This document shows positions 43,320-62,020 of a stretch of 64,000 nucleotides of DNA, piece after piece. The notes below the pieces were generated by a model, which saw nothing but the letters and a program-made list of their open reading frames with translations, made no database searches and was not told the DNA's origin. Where the stretch lies: NCBI GenBank assembly GCA_021604805.1, contig BQJR01000004.1, forward strand, positions 513,794 to 577,793. The letters run 5' to 3'. Source of the DNA: Planctomycetota bacterium. Lineage in GTDB: Bacteria > Planctomycetota > B15-G4. The number at the start of each line of letters is the position of its first letter. The stretch's first letter is position 1. Made by a program: the position numbers and the translations under genes.

Positions 43320-45623
43320 ATGCACACAGCTTGCTGCCACCTCGTCGCGGCGCGCCGGTTTCGTTTCGGCGCGACGACTCCAGGACGCCGTGACGCGCGG
43401 ACTCCCGAGCGCGTCGTCGTGCAGGCTCCAGGGGGCCATGTCGCGCTGACTCCGGGGCACTTCGTCGCGCGGGCTCCAGAGCGCTTCCTCGCGCGGATCC
43501 GCATCGGGCTGCTCAGCGTGGTCTCGTTCGCGACACTCGGCGCGGTGCTGAATGCACAAGCCGGCGAGCTGCCGGAGCAGGAGCGCGACGGCCGTGTGTG
43601 GTCCTTTGCCGCGGACCCCGGTGAGCTCGACGGCCTCTCGCAACTCGGTGACGAGTCCGACGACCTGCCGCGCCCCGTGCTCCTCGCCGGCGACGCCGAT
43701 GCCGACGGCGACGGCGTGCCCGACCTCGCGATCGCCTCGCCCGGCACCGACGAAGTCCGCGTGCACTCGGGCAAGACCGGCGCGCTGCTCAGCACCCTCG
43801 CCAACCCGTCCCCCGGGCTCACCTTCGGGCGCGAGATCGCCTTCGCCGGCGACACCAACGGAGATGGCCGCAGCGAGATCCTGATCGGCTTCGGCGCGGA
43901 ACTCGGCGGCGCGCTGTCCACGGGCGGCGGCGCCGAGGGAGTCTCCGACCGCGGTGTGCAGCTCTTCGCGCTCGAAGGTGGCGACGCCCTGCACACACTC
44001 GATGAGATCGACGACGCGCTCGCCTTCTGCGGCCTCGGCGATGTCAACGGCGACGGCTTCTCCGACTACGCCGTCGCGCGGCACGACTCACCGATGGGCA
44101 TGCGCAGCGTGGAAGTGCGCTCGGGCGCCACGTCGGCCGTGATCCGCACGCACAGTCAGCTCATCGACGACAACGCCTTCCTCGACTTCGGCGCGCGCGT
44201 GGCCGGCGTGGGCGACCTGAACGCCGACGGCGTGCCCGACCTCGCCGTGTCTGCGCCCGGAGCCGAGCTCGCCATCGACGAAGGCGGCGCGCTACCGCTC
44301 GCGGGTCGCGTGCTCGTGTACTCGGGCGCGAACGGCAGCGAGCTGCTCGACATCGCGGGCCCCGCCGGCGGCGCGCGCTTCGGCCTCGCGTTGCGCGCCG
44401 CCGGTGACCTGAACGGTGACGGCACCCGCGACCTGGTCGCCTTCAGCCAGAGCGAGAACCCCTTCGAGCTGCTCACCGGGAGCGTGCACGCCGTGTCGGG
44501 CTCCGACGGGAGCGAACTCTTCCAGGTGCAGAGCTCGCTGGCCACGTCGGGCTCCGATGCGGCTGGCAACATGCTCGGTTCCGGCCGCTTGGTGGATGCC
44601 TGCGGCGCGGGCGATGTGAACGGCGATGGCTTCGACGACGTCGTCGCCGCCGTGATGCTCGACGCCGGTCTCGACGCGCCGGCCCTGCGTGTGTTCTCCG
44701 GTGTCGACGGGAGCTTGCTGCGCGGCCTCGCGCTGCCCGACGGCGAAGGCGTCGTGCTCGTCTCGCCCGCCGGAGACCTGAACGGCGACGGTCACGCCGA
44801 GCTCGCCGTGACCACGCGCGGAGCAGGCGGCGCGGCCGGTCTCGCGCAGGTCGTGTTCGGCGGCGACCCGTGGTTCGGCACGCTCGGCGACCGCGTGCAG
44901 CACATCACCAGCCCCGACGCGAGCGACGCGTTCTTCTTCGCAGCCGTGAAGGGCACGCGCCTCAAAGCCGCGCTCAAACGCCTGAAGCAAGGCACGCTGC
45001 TCCCCGCGCTCGACGTGATCGGCCCGCTCCCGTTCACCGACTCACTGATCGGCGAGCAGCCGCTGCTCGCTGCGAACGGCAAGTCGGTGAAGTTGCCCAA
45101 GAACTTCACGCTGCCCGACACCGGCGTCTATCGCATCGAGGTCTCGGCGGGTGACGGCAACGCAGGCGCCTACCAACTCAAAACGAGCGGCGGCAAACCG
45201 AAGGTGTCCGGCGTGATCGACGCCGGCGGCCCCGACGACGAGCCCCCGGTGGTGCTGCCGGGCCAGAAAGTGATCGGCACAGTGGAAGCAGGCGAGGTCA
45301 CCTCCACCGTGGTCCCCGCCGTAGCCGGTTCCGAAATCACCATCACCGTGAAGCGCGGCAAGGGCAGCGCCCTCAACCCCGAGTTCGGCCTGCTCTTCCA
45401 AGGCGTCACCGACCTGATCTTCATCTTCCCCGAAGGCACCGCGATCAACCCCAAGACCGCCCGAGTCAAAAAGTTCACCCTCCCCGAAACCGGCCTCTAC
45501 CGCATCGAAGTCAGCGGCGCCAACAACAGCGCCGGAACCTTCACCCTCCGCACAAAACAAAAGCCCCCAAAAGGCAAAACAAAGTCAAAGCTGCCCACCC
45601 CCCTAAACCAAACACCCCAATAG
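43320..45623 (+). CDS. FG-GAP repeat protein with two C-terminal PPC-like beta-sandwich domains (start uncertain)
   Basis: 'DADADGDGVPDLAIASPG', 'DTNGDGRSEILIG', 'DLNADGVPDLAVSAPG', 'DVNGDGFDDVVAA'. The C-terminal duplicated blocks are 'FTLPDTGVYRIEVSAGDGNAGAYQLKT' and 'FTLPETGLYRIEVSGANNSAGTFTLRT'. The hydrophobic signal-like segment (LLSVVSFATLGAVLNAQA) sits ~60 aa after the listed ATG. Confidence 0.75.
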   Translation: MHTACCHLVAARRFRFGATTPGRRDARTPERVVVQAPGGHVALTPGHFVARAPERFLARIRIGLLSVVSFATLGAVLNAQAGELPEQERDGRVWSFAADPGELDGLSQLGDESDDLPRPVLLAGDADADGDGVPDLAIASPGTDEVRVHSGKTGALLSTLANPSPGLTFGREIAFAGDTNGDGRSEILIGFGAELGGALSTGGGAEGVSDRGVQLFALEGGDALHTLDEIDDALAFCGLGDVNGDGFSDYAVARHDSPMGMRSVEVRSGATSAVIRTHSQLIDDNAFLDFGARVAGVGDLNADGVPDLAVSAPGAELAIDEGGALPLAGRVLVYSGANGSELLDIAGPAGGARFGLALRAAGDLNGDGTRDLVAFSQSENPFELLTGSVHAVSGSDGSELFQVQSSLATSGSDAAGNMLGSGRLVDACGAGDVNGDGFDDVVAAVMLDAGLDAPALRVFSGVDGSLLRGLALPDGEGVVLVSPAGDLNGDGHAELAVTTRGAGGAAGLAQVVFGGDPWFGTLGDRVQHITSPDASDAFFFAAVKGTRLKAALKRLKQGTLLPALDVIGPLPFTDSLIGEQPLLAANGKSVKLPKNFTLPDTGVYRIEVSAGDGNAGAYQLKTSGGKPKVSGVIDAGGPDDEPPVVLPGQKVIGTVEAGEVTSTVVPAVAGSEITITVKRGKGSALNPEFGLLFQGVTDLIFIFPEGTAINPKTARVKKFTLPETGLYRIEVSGANNSAGTFTLRTKQKPPKGKTKSKLPTPLNQTPQ

Positions 45624-45873
45624 CAGTCGCAGTCGCAGTCACAGTTGCAGTTGCAGCGCAGCCACAGTCGCTGCCGCTGTGCAGTTGCCGTTGCCGTTGC
45701 AGTTGCCGTCGCTGTCTGTCCCAGCGTCACCGGCCGTGTCACGGCGGCGCGCGCCGGGGAACGCTGCGAAGGAATGTTCGAGCCGAAGGCGAGCCATTCC
45801 TTCGCAGCGTTCCCCAGGCAGCGCCGCACGAGGCCCGTCCCGAGTGCGCCAGCCCCGAGTGCGCCAGCCCCTT
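45624..45873 (+). repeat. Composite long-hairpin intergenic repeat, copy A (reference orientation)
   Basis: A hexamer array (CAGTCG/CAGTTG/GTTGCC) spans 45624-45718. A perfect 21-bp inverted repeat follows: GGGGAACGCTGCGAAGGAATG (45756-45776) and CATTCCTTCGCAGCGTTCCCC (45795-45815), with an 18-nt loop. The outer flanks GCGGCGCGCGCC / GGCAGCGCCGC extend the stem. CGAGTGCGCCAGCCC occurs twice at 45841-45870. The element fills the whole gap between the two convergent stop codons. Confidence 0.85.
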
Positions 45874-47742
45874 TCACCCCCGATAAACCGCCACCACCTC
45901 GTCCTCCAAAATCGCCGCCCCAAACGCCGCCTCCAACGTGCCCTGCAACGCCTGCACCTGCCCCGCCCCCCGCGTCCGCTCCTCGAGATGCCCCCACTGA
46001 CGCACGTGCATCAACTCCTCGCGCGCAAAGCAGAACGGCGCCCAGATCACGCCCTTGGGCCCTTCGAGTGCAGCACGCTTCCGCGGCACGAGCTTGTGCA
46101 ACACCACGATGTTCACCCGCGACGCCTGCATCTGTGCGCGCAACGCGGCGACACGCCCGCGAGCGAGTTGCGCTTCAGCGGCTTGCCAGGCATCGGTCGC
46201 GGCGCGCTGTTCGGGGCCCAGCGCGAGGTCGGTCACGTAGCCCTGCGCCACGGGGTGACCGTGCACGGTGGCGAGGTGATTCACGCGCGCTTCTTGTGAG
46301 CCGCCGAGCACGGGCAGGTGCACCACGCCTTGCACGTCGCGTTCCACGGCGAGCAACTCGATGGCCTCCGACGGCGACACGTCGAAGGTGCGCACCGGCG
46401 CGGGCGCGAACTCGAGCGCCATGAGCAACACGGCGCCGGCCATGAACACGCGGTGCGGACGCCCGGGCCCTGAGCGTCGACTCCAAGTTCCCCAGCACGA
46501 CGCGAGCAGGATCGCCACGCAGAACTGCACGAGCAACAGGAAGCGATCGGGTTTGCGGAGCATGGAGAACAGCGGCAAGTCCACGAGCGCCGCCGACGGC
46601 AAGGCGCTGCCCGTGCTCTCGCCACCGATGCTCAGCGTGGGTCCGAGACTCATCACGAGGAACACGAGCGCGAGCACGAGCCAGTAACTCTGCTTGAACA
46701 GCCCGCGCCACCCGAGCGCGAGGAAGAGCAGCGTGCTCCAACCCAACATCGTCGGCCAGGAGACGAGCCACTCTTCGGGCGGCCCCTTCCACAAGAAGCC
46801 GAGCAGGTCGTTGCTGCGCATCGCGGCACGGCCGCTTTCCGACGCGGCGTCGCCGGCTCCCGCGCCCGACAACATCGCGGAGATCAACGGCCAAGCCACG
46901 AGCGCCACGGCAGCGGCGGCCGCCACGCCAGCGCCCACGAGACGCTTTGCGCCTGTGAGCCAAGGTGTTTCCGGCGACCACCACTTGCCGCCGAGCACCA
47001 ACAGCGCGCCAAGCCCGCCGGCGTACACGAGGTAGTACTCGGAGGTGGCCGCGAGCCAAGCCGCCGAGAGCGCCACGCCGAGCATGCGTCCCGCGCCACC
47101 GCGTCGCCAGCAACACACCATCGCCCAGACGGCGAGCGGCAAACCCTCCATCGAACCCAGGTTGAGCTGCGCGAAGTAATAGAGGTGGAAGGGCGCGTGC
47201 GCGTAGAGCACGCCGGCCAGGATCGCGCCGGCACGACACCCGGTGAGTTCGCGCGCGAGCTGACACATGGCGAAGCCCGCCAAGGTCATGTGCAACAAGA
47301 GCAGCCACTTGAAGGCGTCGTGCGGGGAGCCGAGTTGCGAGAGCTCGCCGCCGAGCAGAGCGTTGCCCGGCGAGAGCGTGTGCCGCGCGAGGTCGACGCC
47401 GCGCGGCCAGTGCAGCGCCTGGGTCTCGAAGGGCGAGATGCCTTGCTCGACGACCGCCTCGTGCATCCACCAGAAGTTCCAAGTGTTGACGAAGTAGTCG
47501 CCGCGTCGCGCCACGGCCTGGTCGGGGGACCACGCGAGCGGCCATGTGAGCAACACCGCGAGCGCCGCGAAGAGCGCGAACTCCTTCAGGCGCGGGAGGA
47601 AGCCGGCACCCGGTGCGAGCGCGCAACTCCCGTCGCCGGGGGCGGGCTCGCCGGCAACGACGCCGCTCGCGGAAGACTCCAGCGCTCCGGGCGACGCAGC
47701 GGACGCGGCATCCGGCGCGGGCTCCTGCGGCGCGTCACTCAT
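45874..47742 (-). CDS. Large polytopic membrane protein, GT-C/YfhO-like (putative lipid-linked-sugar-dependent glycosyltransferase)
   Basis: About 12 hydrophobic segments. The N-terminal loop 'DYFVNTWNFWWMHEAV...HWPRGVDL' resembles GT-C/YfhO-type proteins, and there is a C-terminal soluble domain. The ATG at 47742 shares one base with the upstream stop (TGATG). The family call is tentative. Confidence 0.7.
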   Translation of the reverse strand: MSDAPQEPAPDAASAASPGALESSASGVVAGEPAPGDGSCALAPGAGFLPRLKEFALFAALAVLLTWPLAWSPDQAVARRGDYFVNTWNFWWMHEAVVEQGISPFETQALHWPRGVDLARHTLSPGNALLGGELSQLGSPHDAFKWLLLLHMTLAGFAMCQLARELTGCRAGAILAGVLYAHAPFHLYYFAQLNLGSMEGLPLAVWAMVCCWRRGGAGRMLGVALSAAWLAATSEYYLVYAGGLGALLVLGGKWWSPETPWLTGAKRLVGAGVAAAAAVALVAWPLISAMLSGAGAGDAASESGRAAMRSNDLLGFLWKGPPEEWLVSWPTMLGWSTLLFLALGWRGLFKQSYWLVLALVFLVMSLGPTLSIGGESTGSALPSAALVDLPLFSMLRKPDRFLLLVQFCVAILLASCWGTWSRRSGPGRPHRVFMAGAVLLMALEFAPAPVRTFDVSPSEAIELLAVERDVQGVVHLPVLGGSQEARVNHLATVHGHPVAQGYVTDLALGPEQRAATDAWQAAEAQLARGRVAALRAQMQASRVNIVVLHKLVPRKRAALEGPKGVIWAPFCFAREELMHVRQWGHLEERTRGAGQVQALQGTLEAAFGAAILEDEVVAVYRG

Positions 47743-54270: not shown

Positions 54271-55032
54271 ATGAGCGACCAAACCGCCAACCTCGCAGTG
54301 TTCATCGACCTCGAGAACCTCGCCATCGGCGTGCGCGAGGACAAACTCGGCAAGTTCGACGTCGAAGTCGTGATGCGGCGCCTGGTCGAGAAGGGCAACA
54401 TCATCGTGCGCAAGGCCTACGCCGACTGGTCGCACTTCGAGGAGTACAAACGCCCGCTGCACGAGGCCGGCGTGGAACTCATCGACATGCCCGGCAGCAA
54501 GCTCACCGGCAAGAACAGCGCCGACATCAAGATGGTGGTCGACGCGCTGGAGATGGCCTTCACGCGTCAACACATCGACGTGTTCGCGCTCTGCACCGGC
54601 GACTCCGACTTCTCGCCGCTGGCCAGCAAGCTGCGCGAGAACGGCAAGCGCACCATCGGCATCGGCGTGAAGAAGAGCACGAGTCGCATCCTGAAAGACT
54701 CCTGCGACGAGTTCATCTACTACGACGACCTCGCCAAACCGCGCACCAAGAAACGCGGCGGCAAGATCTCGAAGCTCCCCCAGAAGACCCGCGAAGGTTT
54801 CGACCTGCTGCTCGACGCGGCGCGCGCGCTGCAACGCGAGAACAAGGACCTCAACAGCTCGCTCGTGAAGGACACGATGAAGCGCATGCAGCCGCAGTTC
54901 AACGAGGAGTACCACGGCTACAGCAGCTTCGGAAAGCTCCTCGAAGACGCGCAGGCTCACAAGCTGATCAGGCTGGGCACGAACCCGAAGAGCAAGACCT
55001 GGGTCATCGAGGAAGTGCTCGAAGACGGGTGA
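54271..55032 (+). CDS. NYN (LabA-like) ribonuclease-domain protein with C-terminal OST-HTH/LOTUS domain
   Basis: 'LAVFIDLENLAIG', 'GKNSADIKMVVDAL', 'ALCTGDSDFSPLASKLRENGKRTIGIG'. The C-terminal 'VKDTMKRMQPQFNEEYHGYSSFGKLLEDAQ' is LOTUS-like. Confidence 0.85.
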   Translation: MSDQTANLAVFIDLENLAIGVREDKLGKFDVEVVMRRLVEKGNIIVRKAYADWSHFEEYKRPLHEAGVELIDMPGSKLTGKNSADIKMVVDALEMAFTRQHIDVFALCTGDSDFSPLASKLRENGKRTIGIGVKKSTSRILKDSCDEFIYYDDLAKPRTKKRGGKISKLPQKTREGFDLLLDAARALQRENKDLNSSLVKDTMKRMQPQFNEEYHGYSSFGKLLEDAQAHKLIRLGTNPKSKTWVIEEVLEDG

Positions 55033-55210
55033 CTGCCGGACTGCGGCTGGCGCACTCGTCACGGGCCTCGGCCGGCGCTGCCTGGGGATGGGCGCTGCCG
55101 GACTGCGGCTGGCGCACTCGTCACGGGCCTCGGCCGGCGCTGCCTGGGGATGGGCGCTGCCGGACTGCGGCTGGCGCACTCGTCACGGGCCTCGGCCGGC
55201 GCTGCCTGGG
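55033..55210. repeat. Perfect 62-bp tandem repeat, 2.9 copies
   Basis: The unit is CTGCCGGACTGCGGCTGGCGCACTCGTCACGGGCCTCGGCCGGCGCTGCCTGGGGATGGGCG. It starts at 55033, 55095 and 55157, and the copies are identical where they overlap. The array starts immediately after the NYN gene stop. Confidence 0.9.
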
Positions 55211-55290
55211 AAGCGCTGCGAGAGGAATGGCTCGCCTGCGGCTCGAACATTCCTTCGCATCGCTTCCCGGCGCGCGCCGGAGTGGACGGG
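55033..55290 (-). repeat. Composite long-hairpin intergenic repeat, copy B (inverted relative to A)
   Basis: The hairpin arms are GGGAAGCGCTGCGAGAGGAATG (55208-55229) and CATTCCTTCGCATCGCTTCCC (55248-55268). The loop GCTCGCCTGCGGCTCGAA is the reverse complement of the copy A loop with 1 change. The ACTGCGGCTGGCGCACTC motif occurs 3 times within the 62-bp array. Confidence 0.85.
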
Positions 55291-55469
55291 GGGAACTGCA
55301 CCAGCCGGTTTCGGGGTCGCCTGAAGAAGAACGGTGTTTGCGCGTGAGGTACTCCGCCGCGTGACGGTTCATCGCCAGCGCTCATGTCCGTGTCGACTCA
55401 AACGGCAATGCGCGCTCCACGCCGCGACGGCGCAGCTCCCACCGCAAGCGGTTCGCCGCTCGCGATGCA

Positions 55470-55502
55470 CGGCTCACGGCTCGCAGTTCGCAGTTCGCTG
55501 TC
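55470..55502. repeat. Heptamer array (CGGCTCA CGGCTCG CAGTTCG CAGTTCG CTGTC)
   Basis: Read directly. It lies between repeat copies B and C. Confidence 0.6.
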
Positions 55503-55559
55503 TTTCCCCCGCGAGCAAGCACTGATCCCACCGAGTGTCGCAAGCGCCAGCACGCGTCT

Positions 55560-55749
55560 CGCAGCCGCAATCGCTGTCTGCTGTTTGCTGTTCCCGGCGC
55601 CACCGATTCCGTCACCGGCGGTGCGCGCCGGGGAACGCTGCGAAGGAATGTTCGAGCGAAGCGAGCCATTCCTCTCGCAGCGTTCCCCAGGCAGCACCGC
55701 CCGAGGCCCGCAACAAGTGCGCCAGCGCAGTTCAGCAGTTCAGCTGTTC
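55560..55749 (+). repeat. Composite long-hairpin intergenic repeat, copy C
   Basis: The arms are GGGGAACGCTGCGAAGGAATG (55630-55650) and CATTCCTCTCGCAGCGTTCCCC (55667-55688, one extra C). Then come AGGCAGCACCGCCCGAGGCCCG, AAGTGCGCCAGCGCAGTT and GCAGTTCA x2. The tail overlaps the last codons of the VOC gene. Confidence 0.8.
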
Positions 55750-56555
55750 GCCCCCGAGCAGTCCTTCCCACCAACCGCAACAGGATCATGCTGGAACAAA
55801 CAAACGTGCGCCCCCGTCGGGTCCGCGATCATCGTGAACTGTCCGACTTCGGGGATCGGCATCACCGGCACGACCGTCGTCGCACCGAGTTCCATCGCCT
55901 TCGCGAGCGACGCGTTCACGTCGATCACGTTCACGTAGTTCATCCAGTGCGGGGGCGCTTCGCCGGCTTCGGGCGGCAGTTGCATGCAGCCGCCGGTGTG
56001 CTTGTCGCCCTTCATCCACATGGTGTAAGTGCCCATCTCGCCCATGTCGGTGTCTTGGATCTCCCAGCCGAACAGCTTGGTGTAGAAGGCTTTGGCGCCG
56101 GCTGTGTCGGTGGTCATCAGCTCGGTCCAGCAGAAGGCGTGGTTGTCCATGTCGCCGAGCGGCGTGCCGCAGCGCTTGCCTTCCTGGAAGGCTGAGAGCG
56201 CGGCGCCTTGCGGGTCGGCGAACACGACCATGCGGCCCACGTCGGGGATGTCCATCGGCGGCATGAGCACCTTGCCGCCGAGCTCGGTGACCTTGGCGGC
56301 GGTGGCGTCGACATCGGCGGAACGCACGTAGGGCATCCAGTGCGACGGCACACCTTCGAACATCGGGCCGGACATGCCGTAGAGGCCGCCCACGTCTTTA
56401 CCGTCGAGTTTGAGTTCGTGGTACGTGCCGTGCTCACCCATGTCCTTCGGTTCGGATGTCCAACCGAAGAGCGCGCCGTAGAACGCGAGCGCCGCGTCGG
56501 CATCGGTGGTGGCGAGCTCGAACCAGCAGAAGCGTCCGGGTTCAGCGTTGGTCAT
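55740..56555 (-). CDS. Two-domain VOC (glyoxalase/bleomycin-resistance/dioxygenase) family protein
   Basis: Internal duplication: 'FCWFELATTDADAALAFYGALFGW' and 'FCWTELMTTDTAGAKAFYTKLFGW'. 'HWMPYV' and 'HWMNYV' were also seen. Confidence 0.85.
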   Translation of the reverse strand: MTNAEPGRFCWFELATTDADAALAFYGALFGWTSEPKDMGEHGTYHELKLDGKDVGGLYGMSGPMFEGVPSHWMPYVRSADVDATAAKVTELGGKVLMPPMDIPDVGRMVVFADPQGAALSAFQEGKRCGTPLGDMDNHAFCWTELMTTDTAGAKAFYTKLFGWEIQDTDMGEMGTYTMWMKGDKHTGGCMQLPPEAGEAPPHWMNYVNVIDVNASLAKAMELGATTVVPVMPIPEVGQFTMIADPTGAHVCLFQHDPVAVGGKDCSGANS

Positions 56556-56827
56556 GGGGTCTCTCCGAGAAACGGCGCGCGCCTGCGGCCGGTGTCGTGA
56601 CGTGAAGGATCGAGCGCGACAGGAAACGCGCGCGAGCGCGGCGAGTCTACACCGCAGTCATCACAGCGTGGGCGCGCAGCCTGACGCAAGCAGCGCGGCG
56701 CCGCCAGGAACTGTCGCATTCCTTCAAGCGGGGTCCTGTGACCACAAGAGTTGACGCGCAGTCGGCGACCATTGCGCGCGCCAAGGCGTGTTGCGCGCGT
56801 TGGCGGACGGCACCGTGCACGCGTGAC

Positions 56828-56867
56828 ACTGCGGAACTGCGGCACTGCGGCACCGCGACACCGCGAA
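56828..56867. repeat. Octamer array ACTGCGGA ACTGCGGC ACTGCGGC ACCGCGAC ACCGCGAA
   Basis: Read directly, just downstream of the acs stop. It shares the ACTGCGGC string with the motif of repeat copies B and D. Confidence 0.6.
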
Positions 56868-56901
56868 ACGGTGGCGGCATGGCAGCGCCACACACCGCGA
56901 C

Positions 56902-60837: not shown

Positions 60838-61716
60838 GTGACGCGCCCCGCTGCCATCCTTCCTCCCGCACCGATCGAGCGCCGTAGGTGGGCGGAGCGC
60901 GCAGACAGCCCCTCGCGTGCCGCCCGCTCGACACCGGCGCTCCGCCGCGCGACGTCGAGTCACATCGCGCTGGGAGCGGTGGCGGCATGCGCGCTCGTGC
61001 TCGACGCCTGCAGCGGGTTGCCGCCGCGCGCCACCGCGCAACGTTCGAGTTTCGCCACCGACTCGGTCACGACACGGGCGGGCACGGTCGAACTCGAACT
61101 CGGCGGCGGGCTGGGTCCTCGCAGCGACCGCGATCTCGTCACGGCCGTGAAGTACGGGCTCGACGACTTCACCGAGGTCTACGTCTGCGGAAGCCCGTAC
61201 CTACGCGCGCGCGTGAGCGGCGAAACACTCCGCGGCCGCAGCGCCACCGACCTGGGCTGGCGTCACCGCTTCTACGAGAGCGAAGACATGGCCGCGGGCG
61301 TGCAAGCGATCGCGCGCATCGCACACGGCAGTGAACACGAGGGGCTCGCCGGCCGCGAGAACGACTACTTCCTCGCGGGCATCCTCGACAGCTACGGCGA
61401 GCACATCGGCATCACGGCCTTCTACCAGCTCGGTTCACTCGGCGCGTCGGGCGAGCAGCGCGACACACAACACGCGCTCTCCGTGATCGCGGGCGCCGCG
61501 CTCAGCGAGCAGCTCGACGCCTTCACCGAGGTCTTCGGCGAGTTCACCCACGCGCGCAGCGCGAACCCCGTGGCCGCGCAGCTCGGCGTGGCTTGGAACC
61601 GCAGCGCAAACGTGATCTGGGACCTCGCGTTGCAGCGCGGGCTCAACGACGACGGCGGTCACACACGGGTGTTCTTTGGCGTGACTTGGAACTTGGGGGC
61701 GCTGAGCGACGGGTAG
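60838..61716 (+). CDS. Putative outer-membrane beta-barrel transporter (MetA-pathway/phenol-degradation-like family); start uncertain
   Basis: Alternating beta-strand-like pattern: 'GTVELELGGG', 'GWRHRFYES', 'FYQLGSL', 'AAQLGVAWN', and a C-terminal 'RVFFGVTWNLGAL'. The N-terminus has 'ALVLDACSG', which is lipobox-like. The family call is tentative. Confidence 0.55.
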   Translation: MTRPAAILPPAPIERRRWAERADSPSRAARSTPALRRATSSHIALGAVAACALVLDACSGLPPRATAQRSSFATDSVTTRAGTVELELGGGLGPRSDRDLVTAVKYGLDDFTEVYVCGSPYLRARVSGETLRGRSATDLGWRHRFYESEDMAAGVQAIARIAHGSEHEGLAGRENDYFLAGILDSYGEHIGITAFYQLGSLGASGEQRDTQHALSVIAGAALSEQLDAFTEVFGEFTHARSANPVAAQLGVAWNRSANVIWDLALQRGLNDDGGHTRVFFGVTWNLGALSDG

Positions 61717-62020
61717 GTGTCGTGCGCGAGGGGGCCTTGAACTGCGGCTGGCGCACTCAGGGAGGGCCTTGAACTGCGGCTGGCGCACTCGGGGAGGGCC
61801 TTGGCCGGCGCTGCCTGGGAAGTGTTGCGAGAGGAATGGCTCGCTGCGCTCGAACATTCCTTCGCAGCACTTCCCGGCGCGCGCCGTGGTGGCTCGCTCG
61901 CGGGGGCGACGGGGACAGCTGCTGCGGCTGTGACAGAAACGGCGACTGCAACGGCCACGGCAACGGCCACTGCAACGGCCACTGCAACGGCCACTTCAAC
62001 AGCAACTACAACTGCAGCTG
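61717..62020 (-). repeat. Composite long-hairpin intergenic repeat, copy D (inverted relative to A)
   Basis: A 32-bp tandem GGGCCTTGAACTGCGGCTGGCGCACTC[A/G]GGGA occurs 2.3 times (61732-61803). The hairpin arms are GGGAAGTGTTGCGAGAGGAATG (61817-61838) and CATTCCTTCGCAGCACTTCCC (61855-61875). A 12-mer/hexamer array (GGCCACTGCAAC)n spans 61941-62020. Confidence 0.85.

What the first reader, a model, noticed from the sequence alone, without database searches (positions are those of the whole stretch)
55033..55749. Two oppositely oriented copies of the hairpin element in one intergenic region, one preceded by a perfect 62-bp x3 amplification
The 707-bp gap between the NYN gene (+) and the VOC gene (-) holds copy B (inverted) and copy C (direct), about 330 bp apart. 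Together they form a large inverted repeat around a stretch with no credible ORF. That stretch contains a heptamer array at 55470-55502.

Immediately after the NYN stop, a 62-bp unit is repeated at 55033, 55095 and 55157 with no mismatches. Each unit contains the ACTGCGGCTGGCGCACTC motif plus the outer 19 nt of the hairpin flank (GGCCGGCGCTGCCTGGGGA). The amplification therefore looks like recent slippage or unequal crossing-over that used the element itself as substrate.

The tail of copy C (GCAGTTCA GCAGTTCA GCTGTTC) supplies the last codons and the stop of the VOC gene. Element insertion may have remodelled that C-terminus.
Basis: seen in the sequence. Interest (0 to 1): 0.6.

Follow-up and report, generated by a model that had tools for sequence, protein, structure and literature searches.

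The report
Hairpin repeat pair with amplified flank
The gap between two tail-to-tail genes holds two copies of a lineage-specific long-hairpin repeat, one attached to each gene's end and both shared with two sister species; the perfect 62-base triplication next to one copy is a recent local expansion of a kind that recurs at the foot of these hairpins, so this is a new variant of a familiar class of bacterial intergenic repeats.

Summary
A perfect 62-bp x2.9 array (55033-55210) follows the NYN stop codon. Two oppositely oriented hairpin elements lie 319 bp apart, with no coding potential between them. The VOC stop codon sits inside an 8-mer array.

The interpretation needs revision.
- B and C are not the two ends of one unit. 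Each is a separate copy of a 12-copy family and is attached to the stop codon of its own gene.
- The core is about 125 nt: a GCTGGCGCAC motif, a 32-bp covarying stem, and an invariant loop. It carries a hexamer-repeat tail. The "heptamer array" is the tail of copy C.
- Both positions also carry an element in two species about 80% identical in the flanking genes. A third relative has the same NYN/VOC pair with a 95-nt spacer and no element.
- In the sister species the copy after NYN has a single well-formed motif and no 62-bp array. The triplication is therefore specific to this lineage and recent.
- Such amplification recurs. Five of 12 copies, plus an unrelated hairpin family, carry tandem arrays with different periods. 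All six arrays end within 15 nt of the foot of the hairpin, which suggests hairpin-provoked slippage.
- The VOC C-terminus is mostly native; at most the last 4 codons are affected.

The likely role, a transcript-end hairpin between convergent genes, is inferred and not shown.

The parts
54271..55032 (+). NYN-domain gene. Its native stop codon TGA (55030-55032) is followed directly by the array.
   Evidence: PF01936, E=1.5e-37. The C-terminus ..EEVLEDG aligns with homologs. GC3 is 0.92.
55033..55210 (+). 62-bp x2.9 perfect tandem array. Each unit is 7 nt of local flank (CTGCCGG), the motif ACTGCGGCTGGCGCACTC, a spacer, and the outer ~14 nt of the left hairpin arm.
   Evidence: TRF reports 100% matches, score 356. 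Motif hits at 55040, 55102 and 55164. No such array at the corresponding copies in sister species.
55164..55290 (+). Element copy B, core (motif, hairpin, GGCGCGCGCCG).
   Evidence: nhmmer and covariance-model hits (135 bits). Alignment A1.
55196..55280 (+). Hairpin of copy B: a ~32-bp stem with conserved bulges and an invariant loop GGCTCGC..GCTCGAAC.
   Evidence: RNA MFE -59.5 kcal/mol, z=-5.7. Across 12 copies, 99.2% of cells pair and 17 pairs show compensatory change.
55291..55467 (.). Unique non-coding spacer between the two elements.
   Evidence: The wider interior 55291-55596 matches only itself in the genome. No ORF with gene-like GC3 and no Pfam hit. No promoter- or terminator-like site in this stretch. 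No Rfam family.
55468..55608 (-). Tail of copy C: spacer plus short-period (RACNGC-type) arrays. Includes the 'heptamer array' at 55468-55498 and GCTGTTT x2.9 at 55573-55592.
   Evidence: TRF. Arrays of this type occur only beside hairpin elements in the genome. The proximal tail is homologous in species S2 (the alignment of L147 runs to window 55566).
55609..55730 (-). Element copy C, core. The hairpin is 55615-55703 and the motif (reverse complement) is 55715-55726.
   Evidence: Covariance-model hit, 134 bits. RNA MFE -66.7 kcal/mol, z=-8.0. An element at the same position downstream of VOC occurs in L146 and L147-149.
55727..55749 (-). GCAGTTCA x2.9 array at the junction between gene and element. 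It contains the VOC stop codon (55740-55742) and the last 2-3 codons.
   Evidence: TRF. ORF end.
55740..56555 (-). VOC/glyoxalase-family gene (two domains).
   Evidence: PF00903 and PF18029. Ortholog alignment A2.
45623..45875 (-). Family copy A: hexamer tail 45623-45716, hairpin 45742-45828, and a 15-bp x2.2 duplicated motif at 45839-45871 that abuts the stop of the minus-strand gene.
61732..62012 (+). Family copy D: 32-bp x2.2 duplicated motif at 61732-61803, hairpin 61805-61890, and a 12-mer x6.2 tail at 61938-62012.

Best explanation
**What is there (shown).** The 707-bp gap contains two separate copies of a lineage-specific interspersed repeat. The core is about 125 nt: a GCTGGCGCAC-type motif, a spacer, a ~32-bp-stem hairpin with an invariant loop, and GGCGCGCGCC. 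A tail of RACNGC-type hexamer repeats follows. Each copy is joined by its motif end to the stop codon of its own gene, B to NYN and C to VOC. The two copies look like a large inverted repeat only because the two genes converge.

**How old (shown).** Both gene ends also carry an element in two species whose flanking genes are about 80% identical in nucleotide sequence. A third relative has NYN and VOC tail to tail with only 95 nt between them and no element.

**The 62-bp array (shown to be local and lineage-specific; mechanism inferred).** The 62-bp x3 array arose after the element was in place and only in this lineage. It duplicates the short local flank plus the left end of the element. The most likely mechanism is that DNA synthesis stalls at the foot of the very stable hairpin. 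The nascent end then realigns upstream on short homology; the string GGCGCTGCC flanks the junction. Unequal exchange between units then raised the copy number.

**Likely function (inferred).** The hairpin probably forms in the 3' untranslated RNA of both converging transcripts and marks or protects transcript ends, by termination or by blocking 3' exonucleases, as REP/BIME elements do. The amplification is probably a neutral or mildly tuning by-product.
For: **Family**
- There are 12 full copies in the 4.47-Mb assembly and none in 41 order-level genomes.
- The stem has 32 pairs. 99.2% of cells pair and 17 pairs show compensatory change; 0 of 500 shuffles reach either value. The loop is invariant.

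**Position**
- In 10 of 12 copies the motif end follows the stop of a co-oriented gene with high GC3.
- By my reading of the ORF lists, 8 of 9 host intergenic regions are convergent. The baseline is 24%, giving a binomial P of about 8e-5 by my arithmetic.

**Independence of B and C**
- Pair interiors are unrelated.
- B is nearest to C3:386702 at 93%, while B and C are 86% identical.

**Tail belongs to the element**
- 12 of 14 hexamer arrays in the genome lie within 600 bp of family copies, in fixed polarity. The other 2 lie beside another hairpin family.
- Two copies whose cores are 99% identical share about 290 nt of homology overall (86% with gaps). It starts sharply at ACTGCC and runs through the tail.

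**Corresponding loci in other species**
- S1: L154/L155 (NYN) and L146 (VOC). S2: L156 (NYN) and L147-149 (VOC, covariance-model score 123 bits). Empty site: L151.
- No 62-bp array, and one well-formed motif, in the S1 and S2 copies after NYN.

**Recurrent amplification**
- Arrays found: B 62 bp x2.9 (100% identical); C1:1381001, 34 bp x3 (94%); D 32 bp x2.2; C1:1067775, 30 bp x3.2 (89%); A 15 bp x2.2; and an unrelated hairpin at C3:1036146, 32 bp x2.9 (95%).
- Each array ends between 11 nt before and 14 nt inside the 5' foot of its stem. These coordinates are mine, worked out.
- 7 of the 45 best tandem arrays genome-wide lie beside family copies, whose neighbourhoods occupy roughly 0.4% of the genome by my estimate.

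**Hairpin stability**
- RNA MFE is -57 to -70 kcal/mol, with z from -5.7 to -9.9.

**REP precedent**
- REPs act as dual 3'UTR terminator and stabilizer, and convergent pairs with REPs show elevated expression (bioRxiv 10.64898/2026.03.23.713779).
Against: - No RNA data could be consulted, so transcription through the elements and 3' ends at the hairpin are not shown.
- No U-tract follows the stem, so it is not a canonical intrinsic terminator.
- Both strands fold equally well. The structure therefore does not discriminate between an RNA role and a DNA role, and the conserved T:G wobble gives no real strand preference in energy.
- Copies within one genome resemble each other more than the copies at the same position in other species. 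This means either concerted evolution or repeated re-insertion at the same sites, and it weakens a simple 'one old insertion' reading.
- All amplified units contain the 12-nt motif, which could instead indicate selection for extra binding sites.
- The exact number of 62-bp units rests on one assembly.
Confidence: 0.6

Rival explanations
1. The element acts at the DNA level. The hairpin or cruciform and the repeated GCTGGCGCAC motif would be binding sites for a DNA-binding protein (a gyrase, IHF or other nucleoid protein, or a recombinase) placed where convergent transcription piles up supercoils. The motif amplification would then be selected to add binding sites.
For: - Both strands fold equally well.
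- The location is convergent.
- The loop and motif are invariant in sequence while the stem covaries.
- Five of 12 copies have 2-3 motif copies, all including the same 12-nt motif despite different periods.
- BIME-type REP clusters bind gyrase and IHF (established knowledge; REP functions are reviewed in PMC3733652).
Against: - An unrelated hairpin family with a different flank shows the same kind of array ending in the stem. This points to a structural mechanism rather than selection on one motif.
- Array periods of 15-62 bp give no constant spacing.
- Seven copies work with one motif.
- No partner protein has been identified.
Confidence: 0.2
2. The elements are active non-autonomous transposons (MITE-like, or a so far unknown stop-codon-proximal targeting element). 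B and C would have arrived, or been replaced, by transposition, and the array would be a by-product of transposition.
For: - Presence varies between relatives. L111 has a copy upstream of a cytochrome-c-peroxidase-like gene, while this genome has none at the matching site. L151 is an empty site.
- Two copies on different contigs have cores that are 99% identical, and their shared homology starts at a sharp left boundary.
- Stem and motif variants are specific to each genome at the same positions, as expected if sites are re-colonised.
- Five of 10 host genes end in GGG-stop, against 1.8% genome-wide (P=5e-7). This hints at a target preference.
Against: - No Y1/RAYT transposase and no reverse transcriptase. 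The Y2 search was uninformative.
- No copy flanks a transposase gene.
- No target-site duplication was seen.
- The right boundary is fuzzy, ending in simple repeats.
- There are only 12 copies.
- The assembly is 89% complete, so a partner gene could have been missed.
Confidence: 0.15
3. The perfect 62-bp x3 array is an assembly artefact, an expansion or collapse of a repeat.
For: - Perfect identity of units is what consensus polishing would also produce.
- Short-read Logan contigs break at both elements.
- Reads could not be examined.
Against: - The Logan contig ends exactly 30 nt after the TGA. That is the k=31 branch point expected only if the unit has a second left context in the reads.
- The assembly is highly contiguous, 11 contigs with the largest 1.44 Mb.
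- Similar arrays with mismatches exist at four other copies, so the phenomenon itself is real.
Confidence: 0.05

Closest known systems
REP / BIME / REPIN elements (E. coli, Pseudomonas, Stenotrophomonas; GTAG- and CGTC-tagged families, PMC3733652)
   Same: - Extragenic palindromic hairpins specific to a species or genus.
- Concentrated just after stop codons and between convergent genes.
- Occur singly, as inverted pairs and in tandem clusters.
- Presence varies between relatives.
- Proposed or shown roles in termination and mRNA protection (10.64898/2026.03.23.713779).
   Different: - The hairpin is about 85-89 nt with a 32-bp stem, against 20-40 nt for REPs.
- No GTAG or CGTC tag.
- No RAYT gene in the assembly.
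- Only 12 copies.
- It carries a one-sided 12-nt motif and a hexamer-repeat tail.
- The loop is conserved while the stem covaries.
ERIC/IRU and related enterobacterial intergenic repeat units (RU-1 127 bp; PMC2759123), and MITEs such as Neisseria Correia elements
   Same: - About 100-170 bp long, imperfect palindromes in transcribed intergenic regions.
- Low to moderate copy number.
- Some positions are conserved between species and others variable.
- Can reach into the ends of coding regions.
   Different: - No terminal inverted repeats with a target-site duplication.
- No parent insertion sequence.
- The family is sequence-unrelated.
- The hexamer tails and the recurrent amplification of the gene-proximal flank are not described for these elements, as far as I know.
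Intergenic VNTR-type repeats (mycobacterial MIRU; Neisseria NIME/dRS3 arrays)
   Same: Head-to-tail units of about 40-100 bp directly after a stop codon, with unit number differing between lineages.
   Different: Here the unit is not an independent repeat family. It is a duplicated piece of a hairpin element plus local flank. The unit length of 62 is not a multiple of 3 and carries no ORF.

Membership tests
REP/REPIN (RAYT-associated) | Short (20-40 nt) imperfect palindrome | tested here: not met
   The hairpin spans about 85-89 nt with 32 pairs.
REP/REPIN (RAYT-associated) | Conserved GTAG or CGTC tag at one end of the palindrome | tested here: not met
   By my reading of alignment A1, no conserved GTAG or CGTC lies at either foot of the stem. 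CGTC occurs only in copy B's spacer.
REP/REPIN (RAYT-associated) | Cognate Y1 (RAYT) transposase gene in the genome | tested here: not met
   PF01797 gave 0 matches in the assembly, while the control genomes gave matches. Caveat: the assembly is 89% complete.
REP/REPIN (RAYT-associated) | High copy number (typically more than 100 per genome) | tested here: not met
   12 copies.
REP/REPIN (RAYT-associated) | Extragenic position, near 3' gene ends, often between convergent genes | tested here: met
   10 of 12 copies follow a co-oriented stop codon, and 8 of 9 host regions are convergent.
MITE | Terminal inverted repeats flanked by a target-site duplication | tested here: inconclusive
   The hairpin arms are inverted repeats, but the element is asymmetric, with a motif on one side and a tail on the other. 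No direct repeat is seen at the sharp left boundary, and the right boundary is lost in simple repeats.
MITE | Parent insertion sequence or transposase sharing the termini | tested here: not met
   All 12 hits are short non-coding copies. No Y1 transposase and no reverse transcriptase were found. The Y2 search was uninformative. DDE-type families were not searched.
MITE | Presence/absence polymorphism at orthologous sites | tested here: met
   L111 has a copy where G000 C4:36.4 kb has none. L151 is an empty NYN/VOC site.
Intrinsic (Rho-independent) terminator | GC-rich hairpin followed by a U-tract | tested here: not met
   The hairpin is present, but it is followed by GGCGCGCGCC rather than a T run. 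The scan finds no terminator-like site at either element.
VNTR / tandem repeat locus | Head-to-tail near-identical units | tested here: met
   62 bp x2.9, 100% identical.
VNTR / tandem repeat locus | Unit number varies among strains | not testable with these tools
Between species there are 3 units here and no such array in S1 and S2.
Known RNA families (Rfam 15) | Match at the gathering score | tested here: not met
   No match in the window. Only sub-threshold hits to generic miRNA-precursor hairpins. No tRNA or tmRNA.

The most novel reading that the evidence does not exclude
These hairpins may be a maintained system rather than passive repeats. The observations that suggest this are:
- A conserved loop and motif with a freely covarying stem.
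- The same gene ends carry an element in three species that are about 80% identical.
- The copies are homogenised within each genome.

Two readings would follow. One is a dedicated factor that recognises the loop or motif and copies or converts the element at stop-codon-proximal sites; this would be a new targeted mobile or gene-conversion system. The other is a family of 3'UTR regulatory modules whose motif number, set by the tandem array, tunes expression.
Probability: 0.15. Interest if true: 0.65.

Novelty: new variant of a known kind. Interest (0 to 1): 0.4.

Why it matters
Small palindromic repeats are common in bacteria, but their origin and function are still debated, and they are almost unstudied outside Proteobacteria. 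This locus offers three things.
- A clean set of comparisons: an empty site, two sister species with single-motif copies, and this genome with a perfect triplication.
- A repeated pattern: six tandem arrays that all end at the foot of a hairpin. This makes the link between stable hairpins and local tandem duplication directly testable.
- Evidence that dispersed copies evolve in concert while staying at the same gene ends.

In practice it also warns annotators and assemblers. These gaps break short-read contigs and carry spurious ORFs.

Tried and rejected
- **B and C as ends of a composite transposon.** Rejected. Pair interiors are unrelated, B and C are not nearest relatives, and there is no ORF inside.
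- **REP/RAYT system.** No Y1 transposase.
- **Retro-element with a simple-repeat tail.** No RVT_1 match.
- **IS91 or rolling-circle element.** The Y2 search gave nothing anywhere, controls included, so it is uninformative.
- **tRNA-like or T-loop reading of the loop GCTCGAAC.** No ARAGORN or Rfam support.
- **Strand-specific folding inferred from the invariant T:G wobble.** Rejected as a stability argument, because both strands fold within about 1-3 kcal/mol of each other.
- **Comparators in the GTDB species genomes.** The family- and order-level genomes lack both the element and the NYN/VOC adjacency. The useful loci came only from exact-protein look-ups of metagenome contigs.
- **Element-supplied stop codon as a general rule.** True for one copy: at C3:966517 the TGA lies inside the variant motif. 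It is not true for NYN and at most marginal for VOC.
- **Canonical promoter or terminator in the gap.** None at the elements.
Full report
**1. Observation**

- TRF finds a 62-bp unit repeated 2.9 times without a mismatch at 55033-55210, starting at the base after the NYN stop codon.
- The 18-nt string ACTGCGGCTGGCGCACTC occurs once per unit and twice more at another copy of the element. That is 5 hits against 0.07 expected.
- Two copies of a hairpin element lie in opposite orientation: B at 55164-55290 (+) and C at 55609-55730 (-). Their nearest arms are 319 bp apart.
- ORFs listed in the gap have GC3 of 0.63-0.76, against 0.86-0.92 for the flanking genes, and no Pfam match.
- There is no Rfam family, tRNA or promoter. 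The one terminator-like consensus hit lies in the tail of copy C, not at a hairpin.
- The VOC stop codon (55740-55742, minus strand) lies inside the GCAGTTCA x2.9 array.
- The flanking genes are a NYN-domain protein and a two-domain glyoxalase/VOC protein.

**2. The element family**

The window lies in a 4.47-Mb, 68.6% G+C assembly of 11 contigs. It is probably a planctomycete, judging from best-hit names and earlier notes.
- nhmmer and a covariance model find exactly 12 full copies, four of them in this window.
- None is found in 41 genomes of the same order.
- The core has five parts: a short ACTGC(G/C) lead; a 12-nt motif (GCTGGCGCACTC, or CTGACGCCGCG in three copies); a spacer (..GACGGGCCTCGG); a hairpin of 32 pairs; and GGCGCGCGCC.
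- Across the 12 copies, 99.2% of stem cells pair and 17 of 32 pairs show changes on both sides. No shuffle out of 500 reaches either value, and sliding the partner columns destroys the signal.
- The loop (GGCTCGC..GCTCGAAC) is invariant.
- The hairpins are very stable, -57 to -70 kcal/mol as RNA with z from -5.7 to -9.9, and equally stable on either strand.

**3. The tail**

RACNGC-type hexamer arrays are almost confined to these elements.
- Of 14 such arrays in the genome, 12 lie within 600 bp of a family copy, always in the same polarity relative to it. The other two lie next to a different long hairpin.
- The genome has 29 five-unit pattern matches, against 0-5 in each of 41 relatives.
- The two most recently related copies (C3:966517 and C5:16632, cores 99% identical) share homology that starts sharply at ACTGCC and continues for about 290 nt through hairpin, spacer and arrays. 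The tail therefore belongs to the copied unit.
- In the finding's region, the 'heptamer array' at 55468-55498 and the array at 55573-55592 are the tail of copy C. The proximal part of that tail aligns with the tail of the copy downstream of VOC in another species.

**4. Position and orientation**

- In 10 of 12 copies, the motif end follows the stop codon of a co-oriented gene with high GC3.
- By my reading of the ORF lists, 8 of 9 host intergenic regions are convergent, against 24% of intergenic regions genome-wide.
- By eye, the host genes are unrelated in function: an AI-2E-type permease, glycogen phosphorylase, gamma-glutamyltranspeptidase, a DinB-like protein, a molybdopterin oxidoreductase, a cation-efflux protein, NYN and VOC. 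Only NYN and VOC were checked against Pfam.
- Three regions hold a convergent pair of copies. Their interiors are unrelated.
- B is 93% identical to a copy on another contig and only 86% identical to C.

B and C are therefore not the two ends of one unit. Each belongs to its own gene's 3' end, and the large inverted repeat is a consequence of the genes converging.

**5. Corresponding loci in other species**

Exact-protein look-ups of close homologs gave metagenome contigs whose flanking genes are about 80% identical in nucleotide sequence to the window.

| Species / source | After NYN | After VOC |
|---|---|---|
| S1 (SRR20381884/5) | Element; one well-formed motif (L154/L155) | Element (L146) |
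| S2 (JGI Ga0118733, Ga0070729, Ga0209692) | ..GACGGGTGA, 11 nt, then one element of the CTGACG-motif type (L156) | 45 nt of hexamers, then a full element, 123 bits (L147-149) |
| S3 (L151, SRR14610213) | NYN and VOC tail to tail, 95-nt spacer, no element | Same spacer, no element |
| SRR15505515 | No element (L153) | No element (L150) |

- Both gene ends thus carry an element in three species, while the 62-bp array is found only here.
- Within each species, the NYN copy and the VOC copy share that species' own motif type. In S2 they also share the inner-stem variant GAGAAGTG/CACTTCTTC, against GAGGAATG/CATTCCTTC here. Either the copies evolve in concert, or the sites are re-colonised.
- A further S2-like contig (L111) has a copy upstream of a gene whose counterpart in this genome has none. 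Presence also varies, therefore.

**6. The amplification**

- The unit comprises 7 nt that are specific to this locus (CTGCCGG), the first ~49 nt of the element, and a 6-8 nt joint. The event is therefore local and happened after the element was in place.
- It is not unique. The motif end is tandemly duplicated at five of the 12 copies, with periods of 62, 34, 32, 30 and 15 bp and identities from 100% down to 89%.
- A sequence-unrelated long hairpin at C3:1036233 is preceded, again right after a stop codon, by a 32-bp x2.9 array that includes the outer 7 nt of its left arm.
- By my coordinates, all six arrays end between 11 nt before and 14 nt inside the 5' foot of the stem.
- Seven of the 45 best tandem arrays in the genome lie beside family copies, whose neighbourhoods cover roughly 0.4% of the sequence by my estimate.

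This regularity across different sequences favours a structural cause: synthesis stalls at the hairpin and the nascent end slips back. The string GGCGCTGCC on both sides of the joint in B offers the microhomology.

A weak lead fits a lagging-strand effect but is not established. All copies lie in DNA with negative GC skew, and 4 of 5 '+' copies but only 1 of 7 '-' copies are amplified (one-sided Fisher P about 0.045 by my arithmetic).

**7. C-termini**

- NYN ends ..EEVLEDG, as its homologs do, so the array starts after a native stop.
- The VOC tail HDPVAVGGKDCS is shared with the 82% ortholog of S1, which has the same length of 271 aa. Its alignment with the window around the stop is gap-free by my reading. 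Only the last four residues differ.
- S2's VOC carries the element but has a short tail, as do orthologs without the element. Remodelling by the element is therefore limited to at most the last few codons.
- At one other copy (C3:966517) the host gene does end at the TGA inside the variant motif.
- Five of 10 host genes end GGG-stop, against 1.8% genome-wide (P=5e-7). This is unexplained.

**8. What it is like**

- The nearest known kind is the REP/BIME class, together with ERIC-like long palindromes.
- It fails the defining REP/REPIN features that could be tested: size, the GTAG/CGTC tag, a RAYT gene and copy number (PMC3733652).
- It lacks the MITE hallmarks of target duplication and a parent element.
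- A recent study shows that E. coli REPs act as combined terminators and stabilisers in 3'UTRs and are associated with elevated expression of convergent pairs (10.64898/2026.03.23.713779). This is the working model I adopt here by analogy, without direct evidence.

**9. Limits**

- Reads could not be consulted.
- A k=31 Logan contig of DRR328265 ends exactly 30 nt after the NYN TGA, as expected if the unit has two left contexts. This supports at least 2 units but not the number 3.
- The sister-species contigs all break inside the hairpins, so the full two-element gap is seen only in this assembly.

Noticed in passing
G000 C3:1036146-1036315 and C1:1044033-1044124 (outside the window): A second long-hairpin family: 20-21-bp perfect stems of different sequence around a shared ~45-nt loop. 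One copy follows a stop codon and is preceded by a 32-bp x2.9 array that includes the outer 7 nt of its stem. The other is preceded by RACNGC arrays. Contig C3 ends inside what looks like a convergent partner copy.
   Followed up: partly
G000 C3:158202-158279 and C1:464183-464256 (outside the window): Two hairpins with perfect 27-29-bp stems. Their loop (GTTTGAGCGCARCGAACC) resembles the reverse complement of the family loop, while the stems differ. By eye, both appear to lie just after the stop of a co-oriented gene. They may be a distant subfamily that the covariance model misses.
   Followed up: partly
window 56825-56869: A CACTGCGG x4.9 octamer array lies in the acs-VOC spacer. It shares the ACTGCGG string that leads into the family motif, but there is no hairpin there.
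   Followed up: no
stop codons preceding element copies (window 55027-55032, 45866-45871, 61710-61715; G000 C3:386065-386073, C5:16771-16776): Five of 10 genes that abut an element end in GGG followed by a stop, and three end in GACGGG-TRR. The genome-wide figure is 1.8% (P=5e-7). NYN's terminal Gly is native, so this looks like a target or retention preference. It is unexplained.
   Followed up: partly
L127 (relative G008 C34:~255.2-255.8 kb) and L130 (relative G027 C1:~209 kb): Relatives of the same order have compound hexamer microsatellites (GAAGCC, GATCCC, AACAGC, AACTGC; CTGCTC, TTGCTC, GTGCTC, AACTGC) in intergenic DNA. In G008 these are followed by an unrelated hairpin whose stem I read as perfect and 27 bp long. 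The pairing of hexamer arrays with a long hairpin may be wider than this family.
   Followed up: no
G000 C3:386356-386468 and C1:1068016-1068244 (interiors of the two other convergent pairs): A perfect 13-bp x8.7 array (CAACTGCGGGCTG) and a 48-bp x4.7 array lie between paired copies. All three paired gaps are rich in tandem repeats.
   Followed up: partly
L154:3840-3885 (S1 copy after NYN): The loop start reads GTGGACGAGCCTTCG rather than GTGGCTCGCCTTCGG. This could be a loop variant or a flipped loop. The contig ends there.
   Followed up: no
L154:3760-3820 and L146:1226-1270 (S1 flanks): By eye, the S1 flank after NYN holds a degenerate motif-like stretch (GCTGGGCGC) about 38 nt upstream of the well-formed motif. 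The S1 flank after VOC holds a short GGGGCTGA repeat. Old, decayed duplications may therefore exist there. This was not tested.
   Followed up: no
G000 contigs C7, C9, C10 (2.8-4.3 kb, 40-53% G+C): Small low-GC contigs with their own long hairpins and repeats. They are probably not part of this chromosome (contaminant, plasmid or phage fragments).
   Followed up: no
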